From UHGV virus genome UHGV-0342645: a DNA stretch of 59,919 nt, one strand, 5' to 3'. Made by a program: the position numbers and the translations under genes. The notes under the pieces were generated by a model. The model was not told the DNA's origin. It worked only from the letters and a program-made list of their open reading frames with translations, and did not search any database. How positions within the stretch are numbered: position 1 is the first letter of the stretch; every line of letters begins with the position of its first letter. Below are positions 3,748-50,070 of this stretch, piece after piece. This stretch comes from a virus.

Positions 3748-4053
3748 CTATTTAGGCTGAATATAATTGCTTGATCCTACAAAATCAAGCGAAACATTTT
3801 CAGCTTCATAGCGTATGATTTCCTTAACCCTTAGCTTACATTCGGTCAGAGCAGTTTCTGTATCCTGTAAACGTCGGATAATATCTCTTGTGTAAACCAA
3901 AGGAATTTTCTCAACTTCCCGACATTCCACCAGTAGATGCGCGGGTAGTCTTACCTTCACTATCTGTGGAGCTGGGGGAGGTTGAGTCTGCGTCGAGCAA
4001 CCTGCGCAAATCATCAGGAATACGCTCGTTAAGATAAGCTTTGACGTCAGCAT
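3748..4053 (-). CDS. o-spanin (Rz1-like outer-membrane lipoprotein)
   Basis: Internal start MLTSKLILTSVFLMICAGCS gives signal peptide plus lipobox Cys; Pro-rich mature part; starts inside the i-spanin gene in another frame and extends past it. Confidence 0.55.
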   Translation of the reverse strand: MLTSKLILTSVFLMICAGCSTQTQPPPAPQIVKVRLPAHLLVECREVEKIPLVYTRDIIRRLQDTETALTECKLRVKEIIRYEAENVSLDFVGSSNYIQPK

Positions 4054-4387
4054 TGCTTTTCTCCAGTGTCTGCAACTTGTCCTGAAGCAACTTGTGGTTA
4101 TGTTGTTCATCTTGAATTGCAGAAGTTAGTTTCTTGAAAGAGTCCGTGTCCTTCTCCCTTTGTGCAGCAAGAAATACAACAGCCTCGCCCAGCTTTGCAT
4201 TGTCTTTCTCCACAACGGTTAAACGTTCTTCAGCCAAACTTAAATTTGATTTGTTAAGCTCGTTCTGTGACCACAGGTAGGCAGCCACCCCGCATAAAAA
4301 CACCACCGCGCCAATCATCAGGTACTCGATAAATAGACGCGGTTTAGCTTTTATAAAACTGAAGAAGTTATTTAGAATCATTTTCAT
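3911..4387 (-). CDS. i-spanin (Rz-like)
   Basis: 158 aa; N-terminal TM segment (LMIGAVVFLCGVAAYLW) then coiled-coil-like charged region; overlaps the embedded lipoprotein ORF; directly downstream of holin. Confidence 0.55.
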   Translation of the reverse strand: MKMILNNFFSFIKAKPRLFIEYLMIGAVVFLCGVAAYLWSQNELNKSNLSLAEERLTVVEKDNAKLGEAVVFLAAQREKDTDSFKKLTSAIQDEQHNHKLLQDKLQTLEKSNADVKAYLNERIPDDLRRLLDADSTSPSSTDSEGKTTRASTGGMSGS

Positions 4388-4712
4388 GTTTGCAGTCCTC
4401 TGAGTCGAGTTTGATCCCTGTCCGCGATGCTAGAAGCGACTTTAGAGCTTTTAGCGTAGCACGTGAACCCGCCCAAGCGAATAGGCCAGCAAGGCCAAAA
4501 GCGAACCAAAGGCTGATATTAAACTCCCTGTAGATCGCGTACATTATAACGCCGAAGAACGCGGCGGATAAGCCTTCAAGACATGCAATGCTTAACCGTA
4601 CTTTCTTACCAGCGTCAATTGTGCGCATGACGTAACCGAGAGCTCCCCCAATGAGGGAAATCAGAGCAAACCCCGCTAGAACTGCCCAATGTTCGTTTGA
4701 TGAGTTGAACAT
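4368..4712 (-). CDS. holin (putative)
   Basis: Internal start MFNSSNEHWAVLAGFALISLIGGALG with GGAGGG RBS; about 3 TM segments and charged C-terminus; sits between the putative endolysin and spanins. Confidence 0.5.
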   Translation of the reverse strand: MFNSSNEHWAVLAGFALISLIGGALGYVMRTIDAGKKVRLSIACLEGLSAAFFGVIMYAIYREFNISLWFAFGLAGLFAWAGSRATLKALKSLLASRTGIKLDSEDCKHENDSK

Positions 4713-4729
4713 GTTCCCTCCAATAAAAA

Positions 4730-4743
4730 GGGGCTGACGCCCC
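4730..4743 (-). terminator. short GC hairpin plus T-run between endolysin-like gene and holin RBS
   Basis: Minus strand GGGGC-GTCA-GCCCC followed by TTTTTATT, immediately upstream of the holin RBS; 5-bp stem only. Confidence 0.3.
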
Positions 4744-4748
4744 ATCAG

Positions 4749-40463: not shown

Positions 40464-40832
40464 TTACATATCTTTCATTTTTTGAAGAGCGCAAGTACAA
40501 GCTGCGGCAAGATCAGTCAACTCTTTCATGATCCCTGCGCGGTCGCCTTCTTTCTTACACTCCATTAATTCGCGGTATTCCATTTCAACAATGGACATCA
40601 TACCGCCGGGCTTGTCGTGGTACGCCGCCCACGTATGCGGAGGTTCTTCCATCCGGTCAAGAACATTTGACATAGCTGCCATATGTTCATGATCTCGAGC
40701 ATAAGAGTGAGCATGTTTATATTCCTCTTTCTCATGTTCATGGTGGTGCTCACCTACGCTAATTCGAGGTAAAGCAACCTTAGGCAATTTGACCCGTGGC
40801 ATTCCCATCGTTGCAATTTTAATGTGGCTCAT
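40464..40832 (-). CDS. His-rich protein, possible MazG-like nucleotide pyrophosphohydrolase
   Basis: N-terminal HHHEHEKEEYKHAHSYARDHEH; C-terminal EMEYRELMECKKEGDRAGIMKELTDLAAA loosely resembles the all-alpha NTP-PPase EExxE...DL pattern. Confidence 0.25.
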   Translation of the reverse strand: MSHIKIATMGMPRVKLPKVALPRISVGEHHHEHEKEEYKHAHSYARDHEHMAAMSNVLDRMEEPPHTWAAYHDKPGGMMSIVEMEYRELMECKKEGDRAGIMKELTDLAAACTCALQKMKDM

Positions 40833-40903
40833 GATAGTACCTCTGTTAAAAGCGCCCCAAGCGGAGGAGCGAAAGGCGCTTTAGTTTAACCACACTTCAA
40901 CGA

Positions 40904-41611
40904 TTAGCAGCAGCCAGTCGGAGGAGTCGGAGGGGTTGGCAGCTTAAAATTGACCAGATCATAAACCTGATCAATTTCGCAGCGAAGCTTAGCGGTCTGT
41001 GCCAGCTGGGAGTTCTGGAAGCGCGATTCCTGCAACTGAGACTTCAGGTCGCAGATAAGAACTGCTTGCGCCTGTGCGTGCTGGTCACGGATCAGCGCAC
41101 GGGTAGCTTCAGCTTGACGCTCGATGTTCAGGTTGGTTTCGCAGCAACACTTCTGAGCTTCTAACTGTGCTTGGAAAGAACGGGTGATGTTAGCCGCTTC
41201 GTTGCTACACAGAGCCGCGAGCACTTGGCTGGTGCCACCCTGAATCTGAGTGTTCAGACCGGCAAAGCCCTGAACGGAAGCCAGCAGGTTCTGAGTGTTC
41301 TGCTGAGTGATGCCATTATAGGTAGAAGCAGCGGAGCGCTCAACAGTCAGGTTAGTACCGTTCTGCCCCTGAATGGTCTGAAGAATGCCGTTGTTGATAG
41401 CTTGCAGAATTGCGTTGGTGTCAACAGAAGCTTGCACTTCTACCGGACCAGCGAAGTTACCGCGACCACCCCAACCACCATTGCCACCCCAACCATTACC
41501 GATCCAGGAACCAATTAAGCCACCGATGGCGCCACCGATACCAGCCGCACCAGCTTCACCGCCGAAGCCATCGCCACCGAGATTAGTAGGTAAAAGAGTC
41601 ATGTCAGACAT
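40904..41611 (-). CDS. glycine-rich protein with Cys-rich C-terminus
   Basis: GGAGAT RBS before MSDMTLLP; GGDGFGGEAGAAGIGGAIGGLIGSWIGNGWGGNGGWGGRGNF then Gln/Asn-rich region with CCC and terminal GCC. Confidence 0.45.
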   Translation of the reverse strand: MSDMTLLPTNLGGDGFGGEAGAAGIGGAIGGLIGSWIGNGWGGNGGWGGRGNFAGPVEVQASVDTNAILQAINNGILQTIQGQNGTNLTVERSAASTYNGITQQNTQNLLASVQGFAGLNTQIQGGTSQVLAALCSNEAANITRSFQAQLEAQKCCCETNLNIERQAEATRALIRDQHAQAQAVLICDLKSQLQESRFQNSQLAQTAKLRCEIDQVYDLVNFKLPTPPTPPTGCC

Positions 41612-41746
41612 AGGAAAATCTCCATATATGGATTTGTTAAGCGGATGTAACCAACTGGTTACGAAGTAAAGCATACCCCTTAACATGCTTTTTACAATGA
41701 TCCATATGTAAAGATTTTGTAAATTAGGATTGACAGCCAATAAAAA

Positions 41747-41775
41747 GCGCGCCCGAAGACGCGCTGTTGAAGTCA
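41747..41775 (-). terminator. rho-independent terminator
   Basis: Minus strand AGCGCG-TCTTCGGG-CGCGCT followed by TTTTTATT, just downstream of the fibre gene stop at 41783. Confidence 0.55.
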
Positions 41776-41782
41776 GATGTGG

Positions 41783-42763
41783 TTATGGGAGAAGTTGCTC
41801 CGGTTGCTTGTTAATGAGCGTTGCTACTAGTTTTTTAAGATCTTCAACTTCTGTCTCAAGCTTAGTAATGCGATCGTCAGTTTCACGACATACCTGAACA
41901 AGCAGACCAACAATACCAGAATAGTTAACGGTAAGATAACGCGTCCCTATTTCCTTATCTTCTTCAGTGTAAACTGTCATCCCACCAACTGCTTCCGGCA
42001 ATGCTTCCATAACCTCTTGTGCGATCACACCAGAATAAGGCATTCTATCAGATTTAAGGGTATATGTGTATCCGTACATCTTGCGCAGCTTTTCGGTGGC
42101 ATTAGCGATGATTTCAATATCGGTTTTCAAGTCTCGGTCAGATCCCGCACTTACGTTATTTGCTATAATATTTCCATTTACATGAAACTCTCTTGAATTA
42201 TCACTATTACGCTGCATATAGAAGCCATAACCATTACTCCAGCTGTATTCAAATACGTCCGCACGTGTCCCGGAACCCCACATATTCAAACGACCATCCA
42301 TTGACGCTGTGCCATCATTTGCAATACGAAAACGTCTTGTGCTAAGATTTTGTTTCGGCGGAATTACAATTTCGCCATTATCATTAAAATCGTAATATAT
42401 TGAGTCACCGGCAGCGTTAACAACATTAATACGCGCGTTTATAACTCCGTCAGATCTAACCCGCACCATTTCCAGTGACGAAGCATATGTTTTTCCATCA
42501 ATATCTATACCTTGAGAGATTAATTTATAACCTGTCCCGAAGTTGCTAGATGAATCGGTCTGCTGATTCTGCGGTCGCTGTGCTGTCCAATCAGTATTCA
42601 CAATCTCCCGTGTTTCCAAGTTACCAACTTCGGACTTTAGAGTTGACACATCGGACTTCAACGTGGAGGTATCTTGCGTTAATGTTGATACTTCTCCGTT
42701 TATTGCTTCAACGTCAGTTTTAAGTTTGGTTATATCTGTTGGTATAACGGTCTTAGTCACCAT
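41783..42763 (-). CDS. tail fibre/spike protein with C-terminal intramolecular chaperone (peptidase S74-like) domain
   Basis: C-terminal SDRDLKTDIEII...YGYTY...GVIAQEVMEALPEAV...coiled-coil end matches the self-cleaving chaperone domain pattern. Confidence 0.55.
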   Translation of the reverse strand: MVTKTVIPTDITKLKTDVEAINGEVSTLTQDTSTLKSDVSTLKSEVGNLETREIVNTDWTAQRPQNQQTDSSSNFGTGYKLISQGIDIDGKTYASSLEMVRVRSDGVINARINVVNAAGDSIYYDFNDNGEIVIPPKQNLSTRRFRIANDGTASMDGRLNMWGSGTRADVFEYSWSNGYGFYMQRNSDNSREFHVNGNIIANNVSAGSDRDLKTDIEIIANATEKLRKMYGYTYTLKSDRMPYSGVIAQEVMEALPEAVGGMTVYTEEDKEIGTRYLTVNYSGIVGLLVQVCRETDDRITKLETEVEDLKKLVATLINKQPEQLLP

Positions 42764-42772
42764 AACTACTCC

Positions 42773-43048
42773 TTAAGCCCATTCTCTTAGAGGTTGATCA
42801 AGAATAACACTGTGGTTACTGTACTGGGTAAAATCAAATGAGTCATCAATAACTCTTACGTTTACATAATATCCTTCATTTTGAATATATGTTGGTTCGT
42901 CTGATAGACTTTCAACTTCTGTATAGGTGTAGCCTATTACGTCAAGTAAAATCTGGTTTTGCAAAGTTTCATTGTATTCCCAATCAATAACCACAAGGAA
43001 ATCTTCAAATGCTTTCTTATCCTTAAATTTCATCGTTAAGTCTTTCAT
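42773..43048 (-). CDS. hypothetical protein
   Basis: 91-aa acidic ORF between the two fibre genes. Confidence 0.4.
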   Translation of the reverse strand: MKDLTMKFKDKKAFEDFLVVIDWEYNETLQNQILLDVIGYTYTEVESLSDEPTYIQNEGYYVNVRVIDDSFDFTQYSNHSVILDQPLREWA

Positions 43049-45183
43049 ACAGACTCCTTCATTTGACGATCTGTTAATTCTTTATGCCAGATTCTAAAGT
43101 TACGAATGTGACCGAAAAGATGACGTAGGCCGCTATTATTCTGCCCGCCAATCCTGAAGAAATAACCAGATTTAACACCGACATGATCCGTGGTTTTAGG
43201 AGTCCCATGCTGGGCATTGCTAACGAAATGCACATTACCAGATTCATTTAAAACAAATCCAAGAACAGATTTTTGTTCAAATAATACTGGCGATACGGCA
43301 ACTACTGTACTACCGTCTTTATTGTACATCGTAACACTAGGAAATAATGTTGAACTAATAGCAACACTTATATATTGACCCGGAGTTGTGCTCCCACCAC
43401 TGGTATCAAAAATTCGTGGTGCTGCATTTGGCGTTTCGTTCCAGTTTGTATGAACTTCAGCTAGAAATGTTAAAGGTGGTGTACCGATATTGTTATTTGT
43501 TGGTATATTCACCATATCACTGGCTCTTGTGACTGGCGTTTCCTCAGTAATAATAAACGAAGAAGCGCACGAACCGCCTTCGAGCTGAGGAGTTGCAACA
43601 TAAATATAATCATCTGCGCCAGTGCTTCCCCCTTTTGGTGGTGCATATTGCACCATCGCACCGATCATATTTTCTGTATCAAGTGCCTTAATTGTTGCCT
43701 CAAAGAAAATCCATTTGCTTGCTTCATTTTTAACAGCCCTTGCAGTAATACGACTTGCATCGCCGCCAGTTTTATCAATCGATAAATCTGTCATATTTAA
43801 GAAAGCATCACCCACGAATTTGTGGGTAGATCCATCATATTCTTCAAATCGTAATCGACATCTTAAATTTGGAGTCCCACTTTGTACCCTGCATGAGATA
43901 GTTACATACTTTTCATCGCCGGTAACATCATATCCTTTGCTTCCAGATACTGTGACAATAGAAAGGGATGAGGTTTGCCCCACCATTTCTGGTTTTAATG
44001 TGAATTTTGCGTACTGGAAACCAAAATCATCTACACCTGATGTATTTAAAATCATATTTGATGACTTGTTCCACTTTGATGGATTTGTGCTATTTATTAA
44101 CAGGTTTGTACGCTGCCCTTCAATCAGCAATCCATACTTTTCAAAGCGAGGTTCATCGATTGCAGCCTCTGTCAGCACACCAGATTTATTAATGTAAGTT
44201 GCTTTTGATGCACGTTTAAACTTAACAATCTTGTCACCAGGCATTGTAATTTCATCGTCATCAATTACAATCTTTTTATATGAAGGCGAAAAGCCCGTAA
44301 TCATATCTAGAGAATCGTTAAACGGTATCCACACATCAGGTAACGGCTGAATTTCTGGTGCATTGTTGGCAGCAGATTCCGCACGGTCAGCTTCCGTCTT
44401 TGCACGGTCCGCGTCGTTTTTAGCTGCGGTTGCGCTTGTGCTTGCGTTACCTGCTTGTTTTCCGGCTTCGGTAGCACTATTACCCGCTTCCGTAGCAGAA
44501 GCAGCGGCAGCGTCTTTTAAAGCGGTAGTTTCGGACACAGCGGCATCTTTAATTGCTTGCGTCTCACTTACTGCATTGTTCTTAATAGTCTGTGTATTGG
44601 ACTTTAACTTTTCAACATCCTTTTTGAGATTTGTTATTGTGGTTACAGCTTGTGTTGCAGTGTTGGCGGAACCAGCAGCACCTGCTTGTGCTTGTTTAGC
44701 TGCATCCGCGTTGGCCTTAGAATCATTCTTGTAAGTTAATGCTTGACTTGCTGAGGTTGCAGCCGCCGCTTTACTGTTACGTGCGTCCGTAGCGTCTGCG
44801 TTTGCTGCCGCAGCAGAACGTCCAGCTTGTAACGCATATTCCTCAGAGTTAGCCACAAGTCGCTGGACTTGCTTAATAACGTCCGGTGTCAACTGTTCCG
44901 GAGCCCAGTTAATCAAATAGCCGTTGAGCGAACCTTCAGGACTATCGCCATAAATAACAATTTCACCCGCTTTATAAGGCTCAATACCCTGCGGACCAAT
45001 GATCACCTTATAATGGCCTGTTTGTACGGTTACATTGTACGCACCTTCCCCGTCTGTGCGGAATATTGCTTCACTTCCGTTCAATACCGTAATTGTATTT
45101 CCTTTTGCAATAAGCGCAACCGTAGCGTTGATAATTGGCTTATTCAAACCATCCAGCAAGATACCGTGCAAGCGCGTAGCCAT
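43045..45183 (-). CDS. tail fibre protein
   Basis: ATG with GGGAGA RBS (track start is GTG at 45195); about 712 aa; Ala-rich coiled-coil region (AKQAQAGAAGSANTATQ...) and beta-rich C-terminal domain. Confidence 0.55.
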   Translation of the reverse strand: MATRLHGILLDGLNKPIINATVALIAKGNTITVLNGSEAIFRTDGEGAYNVTVQTGHYKVIIGPQGIEPYKAGEIVIYGDSPEGSLNGYLINWAPEQLTPDVIKQVQRLVANSEEYALQAGRSAAAANADATDARNSKAAAATSASQALTYKNDSKANADAAKQAQAGAAGSANTATQAVTTITNLKKDVEKLKSNTQTIKNNAVSETQAIKDAAVSETTALKDAAAASATEAGNSATEAGKQAGNASTSATAAKNDADRAKTEADRAESAANNAPEIQPLPDVWIPFNDSLDMITGFSPSYKKIVIDDDEITMPGDKIVKFKRASKATYINKSGVLTEAAIDEPRFEKYGLLIEGQRTNLLINSTNPSKWNKSSNMILNTSGVDDFGFQYAKFTLKPEMVGQTSSLSIVTVSGSKGYDVTGDEKYVTISCRVQSGTPNLRCRLRFEEYDGSTHKFVGDAFLNMTDLSIDKTGGDASRITARAVKNEASKWIFFEATIKALDTENMIGAMVQYAPPKGGSTGADDYIYVATPQLEGGSCASSFIITEETPVTRASDMVNIPTNNNIGTPPLTFLAEVHTNWNETPNAAPRIFDTSGGSTTPGQYISVAISSTLFPSVTMYNKDGSTVVAVSPVLFEQKSVLGFVLNESGNVHFVSNAQHGTPKTTDHVGVKSGYFFRIGGQNNSGLRHLFGHIRNFRIWHKELTDRQMKESV

Positions 45184-45201
45184 AATTTCTCCCACATTTA
45201 A

Positions 45202-45229
45202 TTGACTTACTCAACCTAACAAGTATATT
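45202..45229 (+). promoter_or_regulatory. sigma70-type promoter of the lipoprotein moron
   Basis: TTGACT-16 nt-TATATT about 38 nt upstream of the lipoprotein ATG. Confidence 0.5.
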
Positions 45230-45266
45230 AAACTTGAACCTTGACAACAACCTAAAAGGAGTCCCG

Positions 45267-45500
45267 ATGAAACGTTCTATTGTAATTTTAGCATTAACAT
45301 TTCTGTTAGCTGCTTGCGGTACTGGTCTGGACACAGGAAAGCCTAATTCCGGTGTTATTCCAAAACCTTTAGACCGTGACGGTAACGGTTCTTTAATCTA
45401 TGATACCGAAAAACTTCCAATGACTGGGCAATGGTGTCATGAGATTGATCACGAGTACCGACGAATTGGTAGTCCTTCCAACTGTGTTATAGATTACTAA
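45267..45500 (+). CDS. cor/llp-like lipoprotein (candidate superinfection-exclusion protein)
   Basis: AAGGAG RBS; MKRSIVILALTFLLAACGTG is a signal peptide with lipobox LAAC; 77 aa; plus strand between minus-strand fibre and tail-tip genes. Confidence 0.55.
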   Translation: MKRSIVILALTFLLAACGTGLDTGKPNSGVIPKPLDRDGNGSLIYDTEKLPMTGQWCHEIDHEYRRIGSPSNCVIDY

Positions 45501-45506
45501 AAATTA

Positions 45507-45530
45507 CCCCGCATTAGCGGGGTTTTGTTT
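45507..45530 (+). terminator. rho-independent terminator of the lipoprotein moron
   Basis: CCCCGC-ATTA-GCGGGG followed by TTTTGTTT. Confidence 0.6.
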
Positions 45531-48492
45531 AACCAGTGAATGAACCGGATCCGTGCGAAACAATAATAGTAGGCGAGGCTATATACGCCCCTCTATTGTT
45601 CTGAGCGGAAATTGTAATTCTTACCGTAACGTTTGGACCAGTTACAACAGCAGAATGCATAATAAGTCGTTCTATATCCTGTACTCTGGAAGAGCCCTCA
45701 GATCCGTTAATATTTATCGTACCTGCACCATTCCCACTCACGTTTGCTATAACACAGACGTGTCTTGCGTGACCTGAGGAGGATGAATCTGTGTATGTCA
45801 TTACCTTTTCCAGTACACCGTTATTCGTTCGACTTACATTCGTCCCAGTATGCATGTTTGCAATATCGCCAATAAAGCTTTGAGCTTCAACAGTTCCGGT
45901 AAACTTACCATTAGTTGCATACACGGTCCCTCTAAACTCACCGTTGGTTGCGTAAATAGTCCCTCTTGCAATTATGTTGTTAACGTGGAAATAACCGTCT
46001 TTAGTAATTGCCCAACCTTGATCGTCACCGTTCCAGTTATAGGATTGAATAATATTACCAATTTTTGCGTTATTGATAGAACCGTCTTCAATGAAGCCTT
46101 CACGAATAAAGGTTTGACCGTTCTTAATAACAAACGCTAAGCTTGCAGCCCCCGCTACCGGATTATAAACAGCAAAGTTGTCCGCACTTACCATCCAGTA
46201 TGATTGATATTGCCCACCCTGCCCTTCCACGCCCATCTGCATACCAGCAACGTATTTATTTCCGTTGTTGTCAATCTGAACCTTCTGCCCCCATTGTGCG
46301 GATAATTTACCGTTTAAATCAGCAAACGCGGAAGCTTGTTGTTGTACAGTAGCGCTAACATTGCCCACACTGCTCTGGACTGAGTTGATCTGCTCCGTAT
46401 ATTTAGTGTCATTTTCCTCTATAGTTGTTTGAAGGGATGTCACACCATCTTCAACTTCTTTAACCGTTGCAACAAGATTTTTATATGATTCAGTTTGCGA
46501 TAACGTGTCTTCTACAAAGTCAATCAGCTGTCCAGTTTCTGCATGAACTACAGCCGCAACTTCCACGAATGCGGACGAACCAAATGCGTTTATCGAACGG
46601 ACGTACCAGTAATAAGTGTGGTCATTCTTAAGGTTTTGGTCGGTCCATGTTGTACCCATCCCTTTTCTTGTTGCTTGCGCTTCAACAATTTCGGTTGCAT
46701 AAGATGGTAATTTTGTTTCACCGGATGTCCAGAAATCAAATTGCGTACTAACGCTAGTCAAATCTTTAATACGCGGAATTAACGTTATAGCAAAATACCC
46801 ATTTTGGACTTCTACATTGGACGGAGGTGGCGGTGCCTGAATGTTAAATTCCAAATAGGCTTCAGGCGACACAGCACCATTATAGCCAACAGCTTGCACA
46901 TGAGCGGTATAACCGCCGCGCAATAGCCCAGTTACACGCACGTTCTGCCCAGGAACCTGTGCGGTCCATATCGTTTGCCCGTTCTGCTTAATTGCAACAC
47001 GGTTATATGAAAAAGATCCTATATTGCTCCACGTTAATACACCTTGTACAACGTCGCTAATCTGCAACACCTGATACTGCAAATTCTGAGGTTGGGGGAT
47101 TCCACCAGTAGGAAGATCGACAAGATCCGGACGCTCTATTGGTTTACCGATAGCATCATCCCACATCTCAAGGAAGTCCTGACGTAATGTAAGGTTAACA
47201 CCTCCTTTAGGATCAAAAGACCATTTAGTTACACGCATTTCAACATCGCGCATACCAATCTGTGGGATTGATACTTTTAAGTACATGCCTGGGCGGAATT
47301 TATACCCCTTCATATTACAAGGAATTTCAAGCGTTCTGCCTACACGTTTACGACGTAAAATAATATTTGCAAGACGCTGGGCTTGGTATGGACTTACAAC
47401 GAAGCGGTATTCCATATCCTGCGTGATTTCCCCTCCATCTTTCTCCACCCATTCCTTAACCACAACTGAGGGGAAGTCTGCTTCTGTATAGTTTTGTTCC
47501 GGATCGATGAATGTACCTGTGATGGTGTTAGTACGGTCTTTATATGATGTCTCCGGTACTATTTTAATATCACCAGCAATACAACTTTCGTCCAACGTCA
47601 TTGTTGCAGGGCCGTAATAAGCGCCAACAAGCAAGCCGTGTTTACCCCCAATATATGTTAGTTCACCGCCGCAAGCTTCCAGCATTGCATCGAGTATTTT
47701 GGACGGGGCCTCTTCAACCTCAAACTCGCCATTAATGCGATAGCGGCGTTCAGATGTACCATCTGCGTTATTTATGATTTCATCACAAATATTGGCAGCT
47801 TCAATAAACTGATCCCAGTTTATGCTGGAGTCTTTACGATTTAAGTACACACGAAAATAATCCAATATCACTAACGCAGCGTTATCGCTAAAGACTTCTG
47901 TCCCTGAACGCGGGTCGTACACCCTTCTACCTTTCTTTAAAACTTTAACGTTAGGTAAACCAGAAGGGAACTTTTCAGCATCAAACTTATAGGTCAGTCT
48001 TAGCCATGCTAAACCTTTACCAATCATGTCCTCCTTCCACGAAGGACAATTATTCAACATATAGGGGTCAACTGTTTGACGGTCGTTATGAAACTCCCAC
48101 GATACCAAATCCCCAAAAGTTTCAATAGCATCGTCGCCAAGCCATATTGGTCCTATCCCTTCTAGCCTATGGGATGCAAGGACAAGCACCATATTTAGAA
48201 TTTCTTTATCATCCTGATCACCAGCTTGTTCCTCTGCAAAGGATAATAGACCGGATGAAACAGTTGTACCGTAGACAACAACTCTTGAAGAGGCAGCGGA
48301 CCGCAAAACTTGTTTACGTTCTTGCTGACCTTTAAAGGCGTTGAAATCAAATTTAGGCGTTTTGGTAAGCAAAGCACCCGCTGCGGTTGCAGCCATGCCT
48401 ATCACTAAAGCGGTTGTAACGGAAATAATACTAGCAGCCGCGGCAGCGGACGCGCCTAGTGCAATTGCTGCTCCAATTATTGCTGGTGGCAT
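45529..48492 (-). CDS. tail tip / host-specificity protein (J-like central fibre)
   Basis: 987-aa ORF directly after the K/L-like minor tail genes; size and order as in the lambda tail module. Confidence 0.6.
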   Translation of the reverse strand: MPPAIIGAAIALGASAAAAASIISVTTALVIGMAATAAGALLTKTPKFDFNAFKGQQERKQVLRSAASSRVVVYGTTVSSGLLSFAEEQAGDQDDKEILNMVLVLASHRLEGIGPIWLGDDAIETFGDLVSWEFHNDRQTVDPYMLNNCPSWKEDMIGKGLAWLRLTYKFDAEKFPSGLPNVKVLKKGRRVYDPRSGTEVFSDNAALVILDYFRVYLNRKDSSINWDQFIEAANICDEIINNADGTSERRYRINGEFEVEEAPSKILDAMLEACGGELTYIGGKHGLLVGAYYGPATMTLDESCIAGDIKIVPETSYKDRTNTITGTFIDPEQNYTEADFPSVVVKEWVEKDGGEITQDMEYRFVVSPYQAQRLANIILRRKRVGRTLEIPCNMKGYKFRPGMYLKVSIPQIGMRDVEMRVTKWSFDPKGGVNLTLRQDFLEMWDDAIGKPIERPDLVDLPTGGIPQPQNLQYQVLQISDVVQGVLTWSNIGSFSYNRVAIKQNGQTIWTAQVPGQNVRVTGLLRGGYTAHVQAVGYNGAVSPEAYLEFNIQAPPPPSNVEVQNGYFAITLIPRIKDLTSVSTQFDFWTSGETKLPSYATEIVEAQATRKGMGTTWTDQNLKNDHTYYWYVRSINAFGSSAFVEVAAVVHAETGQLIDFVEDTLSQTESYKNLVATVKEVEDGVTSLQTTIEENDTKYTEQINSVQSSVGNVSATVQQQASAFADLNGKLSAQWGQKVQIDNNGNKYVAGMQMGVEGQGGQYQSYWMVSADNFAVYNPVAGAASLAFVIKNGQTFIREGFIEDGSINNAKIGNIIQSYNWNGDDQGWAITKDGYFHVNNIIARGTIYATNGEFRGTVYATNGKFTGTVEAQSFIGDIANMHTGTNVSRTNNGVLEKVMTYTDSSSSGHARHVCVIANVSGNGAGTININGSEGSSRVQDIERLIMHSAVVTGPNVTVRITISAQNNRGAYIASPTIIVSHGSGSFTG

Positions 48493-48909
48493 TTACATCC
48501 TCCAAATGTCGGTAATTTCAATCTTACTTAATGGAAAAGTTTCAACACCGTTTGGACCCATAGCCCAAACAACACCCGACCATAATACGCCAGCGGTTAA
48601 ACCTAAGTCACCATTAAATGTAACCACATCTCCGCGCTGCGCATATTTCTTATCGACACGCTGCGTGATGTATACATCCAACATTGTAGGCAAATACGTG
48701 CTCTTGGCTTTTTCCAGCATAAATCTCTTGCTTCCAAGCTCTGTGCTGTACTGACCAATTATCCCGTCTGCAATACTAGTCCCGTATTGTGCGTCTAAAC
48801 ATTTAGCGACAAATATACAGCAATCATTTTGCCCCCAAACAAAAGGGACTTCCTTTAGCTCGTTTACTGTGGTTAATAGGCGTGTCTGCCACCCTGCGGT
48901 TTTATTCAT
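48493..48909 (-). CDS. minor tail protein (K-like, NlpC/P60-like Cys)
   Basis: Internal start MNKTAGW overlapping the upstream stop; WGQNDCCIF...motif; position before the J-like gene. Confidence 0.4.
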   Translation of the reverse strand: MNKTAGWQTRLLTTVNELKEVPFVWGQNDCCIFVAKCLDAQYGTSIADGIIGQYSTELGSKRFMLEKAKSTYLPTMLDVYITQRVDKKYAQRGDVVTFNGDLGLTAGVLWSGVVWAMGPNGVETFPLSKIEITDIWRM

Positions 48910-49486
48910 AGTAGAATCCCGGCGCATCTTTCTTACTTCCCCAAAAGATTGAACGTTCTGCCATTTGTGCAACATATCTAAAAAAGCGGTCCCCTGGATG
49001 TAACCGCTGTTGACTTTCATCCGTGTAGCGGTCAGGCAATCCCTGCGACCATCTTTCAAATACGTTAGCAACAACATAACTTAATGCGTTCTGTTGACCC
49101 GCTTGCATTGCAGTATCTGTAATAAAACCTTCAAAGAGAACGTTAGCACCAGTTACAACACCTTGACTATTTAATACCGCAATGTAGCATATAACTGTAC
49201 ATCCGATTACTTCTTCGTTCAACGTCTCACCAACAAGACTCATATCAAGTCCGTTAAGTGTCATAGACATGGTACTTGAACTTGTGCTGTTTTCTTCAGT
49301 AACCGAGCCAACGTCCCCTAACGTTCCAACTCCAAGAAACGTTTGACCGTCAATAACAACAACTCCGGTCCCTGTATGGACTCTAGTTATACCAGAAGGG
49401 AAATGTATTTCCGCAGCAAGGACAAGCTTAACATCCGGTTGATCCATGGCAGTTAAAACACTATTGCTAAAAGGGCTGAACAGCAT
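48902..49486 (-). CDS. minor tail protein (L-like)
   Basis: 194-aa ORF in the TMP to J interval; TAATG overlap with the upstream gene. Confidence 0.45.
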   Translation of the reverse strand: MLFSPFSNSVLTAMDQPDVKLVLAAEIHFPSGITRVHTGTGVVVIDGQTFLGVGTLGDVGSVTEENSTSSSTMSMTLNGLDMSLVGETLNEEVIGCTVICYIAVLNSQGVVTGANVLFEGFITDTAMQAGQQNALSYVVANVFERWSQGLPDRYTDESQQRLHPGDRFFRYVAQMAERSIFWGSKKDAPGFYYE

Positions 49487-50070
49487 TAGAAAGCCTCCGA
49501 AAACTTTAAAGTAAATGAGTTGTTGAAAGCTGGTTGACGTTTGACGCCGTTGGTATTGTCGGATAAGCGAAAGGCGCCTTGTGGTTTCTGCGTTTCAACT
49601 TTAGCACCATTGGGGGGAATAGTTCTCAGCATTGGCGCAATATTTAAGATAACGTTACCAGCACCATCGCTCCATGCGTCCTCAGTGACCATCTTTAACT
49701 CACCGTTCACGGTAATATAGTCCCCTTCCCATAAGACTTTTCTGTTAGGTGTCCAACCTTTAGTCGCCAATGTAGTTCCTGTGTTGCTTGCACCATTAAC
49801 CACAGGTGTTCCCATAGGAGGTCTGCCCCAACGTCCAAAATCTTGAAGCATAATACGACCAGATTTACCATCCAGCTTAACTAGAGTGGATTCTAATTTT
49901 CTAGATTGCCAATCGTTTAAATTGTTAAAAGATAAAGTTGCCTCCCATCTAGACCCAGGATAGGAGACAGTTTGTGTAGCCCCATTGAAGGGGCTAGTGA
50001 ATTCCACGGAGTTAGATACCAGATACCACTCCATCGAAGATGGTCTAAGTTCCTCAGGCCAGTCAAGCAT
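49486..50070 (-). CDS. minor tail protein (M-like)
   Basis: 194-aa ORF immediately downstream of the tape measure gene. Confidence 0.45.
   Translation of the reverse strand: MLDWPEELRPSSMEWYLVSNSVEFTSPFNGATQTVSYPGSRWEATLSFNNLNDWQSRKLESTLVKLDGKSGRIMLQDFGRWGRPPMGTPVVNGASNTGTTLATKGWTPNRKVLWEGDYITVNGELKMVTEDAWSDGAGNVILNIAPMLRTIPPNGAKVETQKPQGAFRLSDNTNGVKRQPAFNNSFTLKFSEAF

What the first reader, a model, noticed from the sequence alone, without database searches (positions are those of the whole stretch)
45202..45530. Self-contained lipoprotein moron (cor/llp-like) on the opposite strand within the tail-fibre region
A 77-aa lipoprotein (signal peptide plus LAAC lipobox) has its own near-consensus promoter (TTGACT-16-TATATT), an AAGGAG RBS and its own terminator (CCCCGC-ATTA-GCGGGG-TTTT). 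It is transcribed against the surrounding late genes, between the side fibre and tail-tip genes. This placement mirrors receptor-blocking superinfection-exclusion lipoproteins of T1/T5-like phages.
Basis: partly seen in the sequence, partly recalled or inferred. Interest (0 to 1): 0.65.

Follow-up and report, generated by a model that had tools for sequence, protein, structure and literature searches.

The report
Phage lipoprotein that likely blocks LamB
This is a real, self-contained small lipoprotein gene next to the phage's tail-tip gene; a relative has been shown by others to make E. coli resistant to phages that use the LamB maltose pore, so it is an expected, already anticipated kind of gene whose mechanism is still unknown.

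Summary
Window 45267-45500 (+) encodes a 77-aa lipoprotein (lipobox L-A-A-C, Cys17) with a conserved promoter, an AAGGAG ribosome-binding site and a strong hairpin terminator. It is the only opposite-strand gene in the structural block of a Seuratvirus about 98% identical here to BASEL phage Bas22.

- The protein is not a homologue of Cor, Llp or Rtp45. It belongs to a compact orphan family (PHROG 12984).
- One member, Lpp010 of phage mEp010 (55% identical), was shown in 2025 to exclude LamB-dependent phages, including lambda.
- In 42 of 44 phage records the gene sits next to one family of J tail-tip domains. All 8 carriers with a tested receptor use LamB; 10 tested non-carrier relatives use LptD, FhuA or OmpA.
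- J tip and lipoprotein are swapped together as a cassette of about 700 bp.
- The mature protein is under strong purifying selection and does not co-vary with the tip, so a host target (LamB) is likely.
- The terminator is bidirectional and shared with J.

This is a new member of a known kind. How a lipoprotein disables plug-less LamB remains open. A homologue sits untested in an E. coli Nissle 1917 prophage.

The parts
45202..45229 (+). sigma-70-type promoter, TTGACT (45202-45207), 16 nt, TATATT (45224-45229)
   Evidence: 10/12, joint best score in 10 kb. (0.013 expected by chance in this position; the upstream 72 nt are more conserved than 4-fold sites). (both hexamers unchanged in Bas22, Bas23 and STP-SP5; the Nissle prophage keeps the -10 but has a weaker -35). 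Promoter activity itself is inferred.
45256..45261 (+). ribosome-binding site AAGGAG, 5 nt before the start codon
   Evidence: AGGAG-like sites in the same position in all lineages.
45267..45500 (+). lipoprotein gene, 77 codons plus stop (PHROG 12984; family of mEp010 Lpp010)
   Evidence: dN/dS 0.02-0.09.
45267..45314 (+). signal peptide, residues 1-16, ending in the lipobox L-A-A before Cys17
   Evidence: Sequence. Weak matches to lipoprotein signal models. Highly variable among homologues while the mature part is conserved.
45315..45497 (+). mature lipoprotein, 61 residues. Cys1 is the predicted lipid anchor and Gly at +2 predicts outer-membrane sorting. Invariant PNSGV, TE, GQWC and NC motifs; conserved Cys41/Cys57 pair, a likely disulfide.
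   Evidence: Alignments A1 and A2. Acylation, sorting and the disulfide are inferred from established rules.
45506..45523 (.). bidirectional intrinsic-terminator hairpin between the convergent lipoprotein and J genes
   Evidence: reported on both strands. (-14.9 kcal/mol on either strand). (stems differ in sequence but stay paired across lineages). mEp010 has a predicted terminator in the same place.
45532..45936 (-). 3' end of J, encoding the C-terminal ~135-residue tip domain (HK97-type, presumed LamB-binding), the partner of the lipoprotein in the swappable cassette
   Evidence: 88% identical to the HK97 tip, 95% to Bas22. (cassette boundaries at about 45300-45900).
45529..48492 (-). J-like central tail-tip gene, 987 aa
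43045..45183 (-). lateral (side) tail-fibre gene. It lies downstream of J on the late strand, so its transcript must cross the hairpin and run antisense through the lipoprotein gene.
   Evidence: No minus-strand promoter-like site between 45184 and 45530. Read-through is inferred.

Best explanation
The gene encodes a small outer-membrane lipoprotein that the phage makes in the infected cell to inactivate its own terminal receptor, the maltoporin LamB. This is superinfection exclusion, or lytic conversion.

Proposed sequence of events:
1. Host RNA polymerase transcribes the gene from its own sigma-70 promoter, independently of and against the late tail operon (inferred).
2. The precursor is exported, lipid-modified at Cys17 and cleaved. 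[quoted passage not shown] Cys57 and Cys73 form a disulfide (inferred from the lipobox, the Lol sorting rule and the invariant cysteines).
3. The 61-residue mature protein binds LamB, so that J tail tips can no longer bind productively. This protects the infected cell from secondary infection and keeps progeny from being wasted on cell debris. The step is inferred from the Lpp010 experiment, from co-occurrence with LamB use, and by analogy with Llp-FhuA and Rtp45-LptDE.

The gene travels with the J-tip domain as one exchangeable cassette, found in virulent (Seuratvirus, Nonagvirus, Dhillonvirus, one Drexlerviridae) and temperate (mEpimmI, lambdoid prophage) phages.
For: Homology to a tested protein:
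- 55% identity to mEp010 gp116 (Lpp010), E 9e-32, with the same convergent position after J.
- Lpp010 expressed from a plasmid excludes LamB-dependent mEp010, mEp044, mEp554 and lambda (PMC11893012).

Receptor correlation:
- All carriers with a tested receptor use LamB: Bas21-24 and mEp010/013/044/554.
- Tested non-carrier relatives use LptD (Bas14, 18, 19, 20, 25), FhuA (Bas15-17) or OmpA (mEp021, mEp515). The Bas14-18 part was predicted before it was looked up.

Genomic linkage:
- 42 of 44 phage records with the gene have one of two related J-tip subtypes, and 42 of 44 records with such tips have the gene.
- The LptD-using Bas25 lacks exactly the tip-plus-lipoprotein stretch. Dru_SM1 shares that stretch at 94-99% while the rest of its J is 70-80% identical.

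The target is the host, not the phage tip:
- Lambda's tip is unrelated to these tips, yet lambda is excluded by Lpp010.
- Window and Bas23 have identical C-terminal 52 residues at dS 0.8 although their tips are about 24% identical.

Gene and signals are real: dN/dS 0.02-0.09, conserved promoter and hairpin.

Sorting: no family member has Asp at +2.

Literature expectation: van den Berg 2022.
Against: - No experiment exists on this protein or on any Queuovirinae member. The only functional data are spot assays for a 55%-identical homologue. No adsorption assay, binding assay or localisation came up in the parts of that paper I read.
- LamB has no plug and no known allostery, so the Llp-type mechanism cannot simply be transferred.
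- mEp013 is LamB-dependent but escapes Lpp010.
- HK97 and lambda use LamB without carrying the gene.
- STP-SP5 carries the gene beside an unrelated J tip.
- AlphaFold gave no confident fold (pLDDT 58 and 51), so there is no structural support.
- Early timing of expression is untested.
Confidence: 0.78

Rival explanations
1. The lipoprotein blocks infection after adsorption. Instead of disabling LamB, it interferes with tail-tube or tape-measure penetration or with DNA passage through the periplasm or inner membrane.
For: The mEp study used only plating assays and itself lists interference with DNA ejection as a possible mode. mEp013 still infects Lpp010-expressing cells through LamB, so LamB remains present and usable for some tips.
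Against: Lambda and HK97-type phages share LamB but need different inner-membrane components. HK97 needs PtsG and FkpA. Lambda needs ManYZ (established knowledge, not checked here). The gene is linked to the receptor-binding tip, not to the tape-measure gene. The predicted sorting is to the outer membrane.
Confidence: 0.1
2. It does act on LamB, but from outside. The lipoprotein is flipped to the cell surface and masks the LamB loops sterically, with no periplasmic binding.
For: van den Berg et al. raised this possibility for non-TonB-dependent receptors, because LamB and LptD lack known allostery.
Against: For LptD the question has since been answered: Rtp45 binds on the periplasmic side (PMC12685063). 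Nothing in this sequence suggests surface export. A mask would have to block two unrelated tip folds, lambda's and the HK97 type, yet spare mEp013.
Confidence: 0.08
3. It is an unrelated moron, for example a host-fitness or serum-resistance lipoprotein like lambda Bor. It occupies the same hot spot after J as lom does in lambda, and has no role in exclusion in this phage.
For: The slot after J collects unrelated accessory genes, such as lom in lambda. The gene also occurs in prophages of about 48 complete E. coli genomes.
Against: No match to Bor, Lom or any other Pfam family. There is strict linkage to LamB-type tips, a direct exclusion phenotype of a homologue, and retention in strictly virulent phages, where host fitness factors make little sense.
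Confidence: 0.03
4. It is the outer-membrane spanin (lysis lipoprotein) of the phage.
For: It is a small outer-membrane lipoprotein, and it is the only ORF in the window that fits a strict lipobox pattern.
Against: The lysis cassette lies 40 kb away at about 3.7-5.5 kb. It already has an i-spanin (3911-4387, minus strand) with an overlapping, proline-rich o-spanin ORF reading MLTSKLILTSVFLMICAGC|STQTQPPPAPQ. No i-spanin partner lies near this gene. The mature part is not proline-rich.
Confidence: 0.01

Closest known systems
Lpp010 (gp116) of temperate phage mEp010, the 'type-C' lipoprotein of mEpimmI phages (Negrete-Mendez et al. 2025, PMC11893012)
   Same: A true homologue: 55% identity over the whole protein, with the same lipobox, the same PNSGV / GQWC / NC motifs and the same cysteine pair. 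It has the same convergent position right after J, with a hairpin in between, and a related J-tip domain. The phage is LamB-dependent.
   Different: The host phage is temperate and unrelated outside the tip. A small extra ORF lies upstream and the promoter region differs. Only Lpp010 has been tested experimentally.
T5 Llp (lytic conversion lipoprotein; structures 8A60 and 7QJF)
   Same: Same size class (77-aa precursor, about 61-aa mature). Both are outer-membrane lipoproteins with one disulfide, encoded next to the receptor-binding gene. Presumed same purpose: switching off the phage's own receptor.
   Different: No sequence similarity in the mature part, and no PDB hit. Cysteines at mature positions 11 and 58, against 41 and 57 here. 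Llp targets FhuA, a TonB-dependent transporter, and works through the plug by reverse allostery. LamB has no such feature.
Cor of T1, phi80, N15 and HK022
   Same: A small lipoprotein on the opposite strand downstream of J and the fibre genes, with an exclusion function directed at the receptor.
   Different: Similarity is limited to the signal peptide. Cor is associated with FhuA. Cysteines at mature positions 9 and 57.
Rtp45 of phage Rtp, the LptD-directed exclusion lipoprotein (structure 9RPS)
   Same: It is convergent with J in the same slot. It shows that a small periplasmic lipoprotein can disable a receptor that is not TonB-dependent, which makes it the best mechanistic precedent.
   Different: No similarity in the mature part; the score is within the range of shuffled sequences. 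Cysteines at mature positions 11 and 19. It is encoded together with a separate receptor-binding protein (rtp44), whereas here the receptor-binding domain is part of J.

Membership tests
Lpp010 / PHROG 12984 family (LamB-associated exclusion lipoproteins) | Full-length sequence homology to family members | tested here: met
   PHROG 12984, E 2.5e-49 over 77/77 positions. 55% identity to Lpp010, E 9e-32. 28 homologues.
Lpp010 / PHROG 12984 family (LamB-associated exclusion lipoproteins) | Lipoprotein signal peptide with lipobox, no Asp at +2, and conserved PNSGV, GQWC and NC motifs with a cysteine pair | tested here: met
   Alignment A1: invariant C17, P26-V30, G54-C57, N72-C73.
Lpp010 / PHROG 12984 family (LamB-associated exclusion lipoproteins) | Encoded immediately after, and convergent with, a J gene carrying the HK97/Bas23-type tip; host phage uses LamB | tested here: met
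   28 nt between the two stop codons. The tip is 88% identical to HK97 and 95% to Bas22. Bas22 is LamB-dependent, shown with complementation. The receptor of the window phage itself is inferred.
Lpp010 / PHROG 12984 family (LamB-associated exclusion lipoproteins) | Expression excludes LamB-dependent phages | not testable with these tools
   Shown only for Lpp010.
Cor family (T1, phi80, N15) | Sequence similarity of the mature protein | tested here: not met
   The profile comparison aligns residues 1-24 only. With mature parts only, score 7.8 against a shuffled mean of 8.6.
Cor family (T1, phi80, N15) | Association with FhuA-dependent phages | tested here: not met
   All carriers with a known receptor use LamB.
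Llp family (T5-like phages) | Sequence similarity to Llp (8A60 chain B, 7QJF) | tested here: not met
   No PDB hit with the single sequence or the profile. With mature parts only, score 8.0 against a shuffled mean of 9.7.
Llp family (T5-like phages) | Similarity of fold | tested here: inconclusive
   The AlphaFold models are too poor to compare (pLDDT 58 and 51). No fold search was run.
Rtp45 family (LptD-directed) | Sequence similarity of the mature protein | tested here: not met
   The full-length comparison (84.7% probability) is not backed once signal peptides are removed. With mature parts only, score 15.2 against a shuffled maximum of 15.9.
Two-component spanin, outer-membrane subunit | Located in the lysis cassette, with an adjacent or overlapping i-spanin gene | tested here: not met
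   The lysis cassette is at 3.7-5.5 kb and has its own i-spanin/o-spanin pair.
Lambda Bor / Lom accessory outer-membrane proteins | Match to the family's Pfam profile | tested here: not met
   The only Pfam matches are weak lipobox-region hits.

The most novel reading that the evidence does not exclude
The family disables LamB, a plug-less trimeric porin with no known allostery, by a structural mechanism different from Llp-FhuA. One possibility is that this small, intrinsically unfolded, disulfide-stapled peptide docks onto the periplasmic rim of the barrel or threads into it. That would also shut maltodextrin uptake. It blocks two unrelated tip folds, lambda's and the HK97 type, yet some tip variants such as mEp013 evade it. 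In prophages it would be an unrecognised cause of resistance to lambda-like phages, for example in the probiotic E. coli Nissle 1917, where an unidentified entry-blocking factor was postulated.
Probability: 0.3. Interest if true: 0.6.

Novelty: new member of a known kind. Interest (0 to 1): 0.33.

Why it matters
Exclusion lipoproteins decide whether a phage-infected or lysogenic cell can be attacked again, so they matter for phage cocktails and for the phage resistance of probiotic and production strains. Structures exist for the FhuA and LptD cases, but I found none for LamB, the classic lambda receptor. This family is the natural candidate for that missing case.

The analysis adds three things:
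- It ties the Queuovirinae and Dhillonvirus 'hypothetical lipoproteins' to the one tested protein, Lpp010.
- It shows that carrying the gene predicted LamB use in all 18 phages with a tested receptor.
- It shows that tip and lipoprotein move as one cassette between virulent and temperate phages.

None of this would surprise a specialist.

Tried and rejected
- Pfam and NCBIfam gave only weak matches to the lipobox region.
- PDB sequence searches with the single protein and with the family profile found nothing meaningful.
- Full-length profile comparisons with Rtp45 and Cor looked positive (85% and 92% probability). They did not survive removal of the signal peptides, so I rejected them.
- Two AlphaFold runs, full-length and mature-only, gave pLDDT 58 and 51. 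I therefore ran no fold search, since it would have produced meaningless matches.
- An exhaustive profile search of 1.84 billion representative proteins found only three real clusters, so a deeper alignment was not possible.
- The spanin reading was considered and rejected.
- The Bor/Lom reading was rejected.
- I looked for a lipoprotein remnant downstream of HK97 J and found none.
- I searched for relatives of the odd STP-SP5 J tip and found none.
- A LamB-lipoprotein complex prediction could not be attempted, because LamB is not an admissible input to the structure tool.

Full report
**1. What is there**

The window is essentially a whole Seuratvirus genome (Queuovirinae). The region of the finding is 97.6% identical to BASEL phage KurtStettler (Bas22) and 99.3% identical to phage Dru_SM1. 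The gene is annotated there as 'hypothetical protein' and 'lipoprotein' respectively.

The ORF runs from 45267 to 45500 on the + strand and encodes 77 residues, MKRSIVILALTFLLAAC|GTG.... It has a positively charged N-terminus, a hydrophobic core and the lipobox L-A-A-C, with Cys17 as the predicted acylated residue. The mature protein has 61 residues, Gly at +2 and two further cysteines.

The flanking genes on the minus strand are as follows:
- The 987-aa J-like tail-tip gene (45529-48492), which is convergent with the ORF. The two stop codons are 28 nt apart.
- The 716-aa lateral fibre gene. Its true start is probably the ATG at 45183, because the Pfam N-terminal fibre domain begins at residue 5 of the longer GTG-started ORF.

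In the well-annotated Dru_SM1 genome this lipoprotein is the only opposite-strand gene in about 24 kb of head and tail genes. It points the same way as the replication genes.

**2. Are the signals more than chance?**

- *Promoter.* TTGACT-16-TATATT (45202-45229) scores 10 of 12 and ties for the best score in the 10-kb scan. The total count of promoter-like sites there is no higher than in shuffles, so the scan alone proves nothing. Over the whole window, sites of this quality occur 18 times in 119.8 kb of both strands. Only 0.013 are expected in the 84 nt upstream of a given gene.
- *Promoter conservation.* Both hexamers are unchanged in Bas22, Bas23 and the distant STP-SP5. The Nissle 1917 prophage keeps the -10 hexamer but has a weaker -35, and phage 9g also has a weakened -35. 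The upstream 72 nt are 74-86% identical between lineages, while 4-fold degenerate sites of the adjacent coding sequence are only 36-69% identical.
- *Other lineages.* Dhillonviruses and the Drexlerviridae phage AS5 have different but plausible promoters in the same place, for example TTGCAC-17-TATCAT.
- *Hairpin.* The hairpin at 45506-45523 folds at -14.9 kcal/mol on either strand, against about -4 for shuffles. It has T-runs on both sides. Across lineages the stem sequence changes but pairing is kept: CCCCGC/GCGGGG, CCCCTC/GAGGGG, GGCTCCC/GGGAGCC. It is a bidirectional terminator shared with J.
- *Coding sequence.* It is under strong purifying selection, with dN/dS of 0.02-0.09.

**3. What family is it?**

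Pfam and NCBIfam give only lipobox-region noise. PHROGs places the protein squarely in phrog_12984, 'lipoprotein' (E 2.5e-49). A search of 5.8 billion proteins finds 28 close relatives. An exhaustive profile search of 1.84 billion cluster representatives finds only three real clusters. The family is therefore a compact orphan.

Signal peptides vary freely, but the mature part is highly conserved. Invariant residues are C17, PNSGV (26-30), TE (47-48), GQWC (54-57), R66, G68 and N72-C73.

In the phage collection the gene occurs in 44 records. These cover Seuratvirus, Nonagvirus (9g), Dhillonvirus (EP23, HH3, PNS1, Maverick), one Drexlerviridae (AS5) and the temperate mEpimmI phages. About 48 of 5426 complete E. 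coli genomes carry it in prophages.

**4. The decisive link**

The mEpimmI members are the 'type-C' lipoproteins of Negrete-Mendez et al. 2025. My hit in mEp010 is exactly gp116, the gene they cloned as Lpp010. It is 55% identical to the window protein.

Expressed from a plasmid, Lpp010 prevented plating of the LamB-dependent phages mEp010, mEp044 and mEp554. The authors did not expect it to exclude lambda, but it did. It did not exclude LamB-dependent mEp013. In the same study, sister phages that use OmpA carried a different lipoprotein, which excluded only them.

**5. Independent tests made here**

*(a) Receptor correlation.* In the Maffei et al. S5 table, the four BASEL Queuovirinae that carry the gene (Bas21-24) all use LamB. 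Bas19, Bas20 and Bas25, which lack it, use LptD. I then predicted that the BASEL Dhillonviruses, none of which appeared in the hit list, would not use LamB. They use LptD (Bas14, Bas18) or FhuA (Bas15-17). Together with the mEp phages, 8 of 8 tested carriers use LamB and 0 of 10 tested non-carrier relatives do. The phages are related to one another, so this is not a clean statistic.

*(b) Linkage to the J tip.* The last ~135 residues of J form one divergent domain family.
- The HK97-like subtype includes the window, Bas22, 9g, mEp010 and the Nissle prophage.
- The Bas23-like subtype includes EP23, Maverick and MagusPhagus.
- AS5 bridges the two subtypes.

Of 44 records with the gene, 42 have such a tip by tblastn. 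Of 44 records with such a tip, 42 have the gene. The exception is HK97, deposited twice, which has no ORF of this family after J.

*(c) Cassette behaviour.* The LptD-using Bas25 loses similarity to the window exactly across about 45300-45900 and holds a 321-aa ORF in that slot. Dru_SM1 is 94-99% identical there but only 70-80% identical in the rest of J.

*(d) The target is not the tip.* Lambda's receptor-binding domain is unrelated to these tips, yet lambda is excluded by Lpp010. Window and Bas23 have identical C-terminal 52 residues at dS of about 0.8, although their tips are only about 24% identical. The component common to all excluded phages is LamB.

**6. Mechanism: what is shown and what is inferred**

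- Shown by others: a homologue excludes LamB users.
- Shown here: homology, linkage, selection and conserved signals.
- Inferred from established rules: Sec export, lipidation at Cys17, outer-membrane sorting (no Asp at +2 anywhere in the family) and a Cys57-Cys73 disulfide.
- Inferred by analogy with Llp-FhuA (8A60) and Rtp45-LptDE (9RPS): binding to LamB, probably from the periplasmic side, so that tips can no longer bind or trigger.

The escape of mEp013 argues that LamB stays in the membrane and is altered, not removed.

A block after adsorption is less likely. HK97 needs PtsG and FkpA, and lambda needs ManYZ (from my own knowledge, not checked here), so the two share LamB but not their inner-membrane requirements.

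Late transcripts for the side fibre have no promoter of their own in the scan. They presumably read through the hairpin, antisense to this gene. That could shut the gene down late in infection, but this is speculation.

**7. Comparison with known systems**

The gene works like Cor, Llp and Rtp45, and it sits where they sit. It is not a member of those families. With signal peptides removed, profile scores against all three fall within the range of shuffled sequences. The cysteine spacing also differs: mature positions 41/57 here, 11/58 in Llp, 9/57 in Cor and 11/19 in Rtp45. The apparent full-length matches do not survive removal of the signal peptides.

Fold comparison was not possible. AlphaFold gave pLDDT 58 for the full length and 51 for the mature part. 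Either the protein has no stable fold on its own, or the alignment is too shallow.

The spanin rival is excluded, because the lysis cassette at 3.7-5.5 kb has its own overlapping i-spanin/o-spanin pair.

**8. Novelty and verdict**

The functional idea is already in print for close relatives (van den Berg 2022; Maffei 2021). It has been demonstrated for one homologue. The window gene is therefore a new member of a known kind.

Three things remain open:
- Direct proof for a Queuovirinae member.
- Whether adsorption is the step that is blocked.
- How a 61-residue lipoprotein disables a porin that has neither a plug nor known allostery.

Interest is modest, at about 0.33.

Noticed in passing
L016 6958-7191 (E. 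coli Nissle 1917, NZ_CP007799 2039441-2039674, ECOLIN_RS28545): The probiotic strain Nissle 1917 carries a 77-aa homologue with a nearly identical mature part. It is convergent with a lambdoid prophage J whose tip is 92% identical to HK97's, and it has a homologous promoter region. Bury et al. 2018 postulated an unidentified factor that blocks entry of lambdoid phages, and they never mention a lipoprotein. By their Table S1 coordinates the gene would lie in 'prophage 4', not the prophage 3 they tested, if the same assembly was used.
   Followed up: partly
L012/L013 (Salmonella phage STP-SP5, OR498732; J spans the record ends): This Seuratvirus keeps an intact lipoprotein and the same promoter. 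Its J tip, however, has no detectable similarity to the two LamB-associated subtypes or to lambda's, and it is unique in the phage collection. There is also no hairpin after the gene. Its receptor is unknown. It is the one real exception to the tip-lipoprotein linkage.
   Followed up: partly
window 40800-49800: The window phage is a mosaic. J upstream of the tip is 96-99% Bas22-like and only 70-80% Dru_SM1-like. The J tip and lipoprotein are shared with both. Parts of the lateral-fibre region (about 42600-44700) match Dru_SM1 or Bas25 better than Bas22, and other parts (42000-42600, 43500-44100) match only Bas22.
   Followed up: partly
window 3748-4745 (minus strand): The lysis cassette holds a holin (4368-4745), an i-spanin (3911-4387) and an overlapping o-spanin ORF inside 3748-4110. 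The o-spanin has an unusual lipobox-like I-C-A-G-C and a proline-rich mature part. In Dru_SM1 the corresponding ORFs are annotated only as hypothetical proteins.
   Followed up: partly
L017 5737-6234 (E. coli O68:H12 strain 97.3 prophage at dusA): The lipoprotein homologue here reads ...PIKRSIV..., with Ile where the start Met should be. It is annotated as a 165-aa ORF that overlaps the fibre gene start. It may be an inactivated copy or use another start codon.
   Followed up: no
L005 3831-4796 (VogelGryff/Bas25): In the LptD-using Seuratvirus, the slot between J and the side fibre holds a 321-aa opposite-strand ORF, similar in size and position to rtp44 of phage Rtp. No small lipoprotein is annotated beside it. 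An unannotated Rtp45-like gene may be present.
   Followed up: no
P0030 (protein from the representative library): A 4467-residue protein matches profile positions 34-63 of the lipoprotein family in nine separate stretches, at E 2e-6. This is probably a repeat-driven chance match. I did not examine it.
   Followed up: no
window 42773-43048 (minus strand): A conserved 91-aa ORF of unknown function (phrog_1361, E 1e-31) lies between the lateral fibre gene and a 326-aa fibre protein that carries an S74 intramolecular-chaperone domain. The same small ORF follows the fibre gene in Bas22, Bas25 and Dru_SM1.
   Followed up: no
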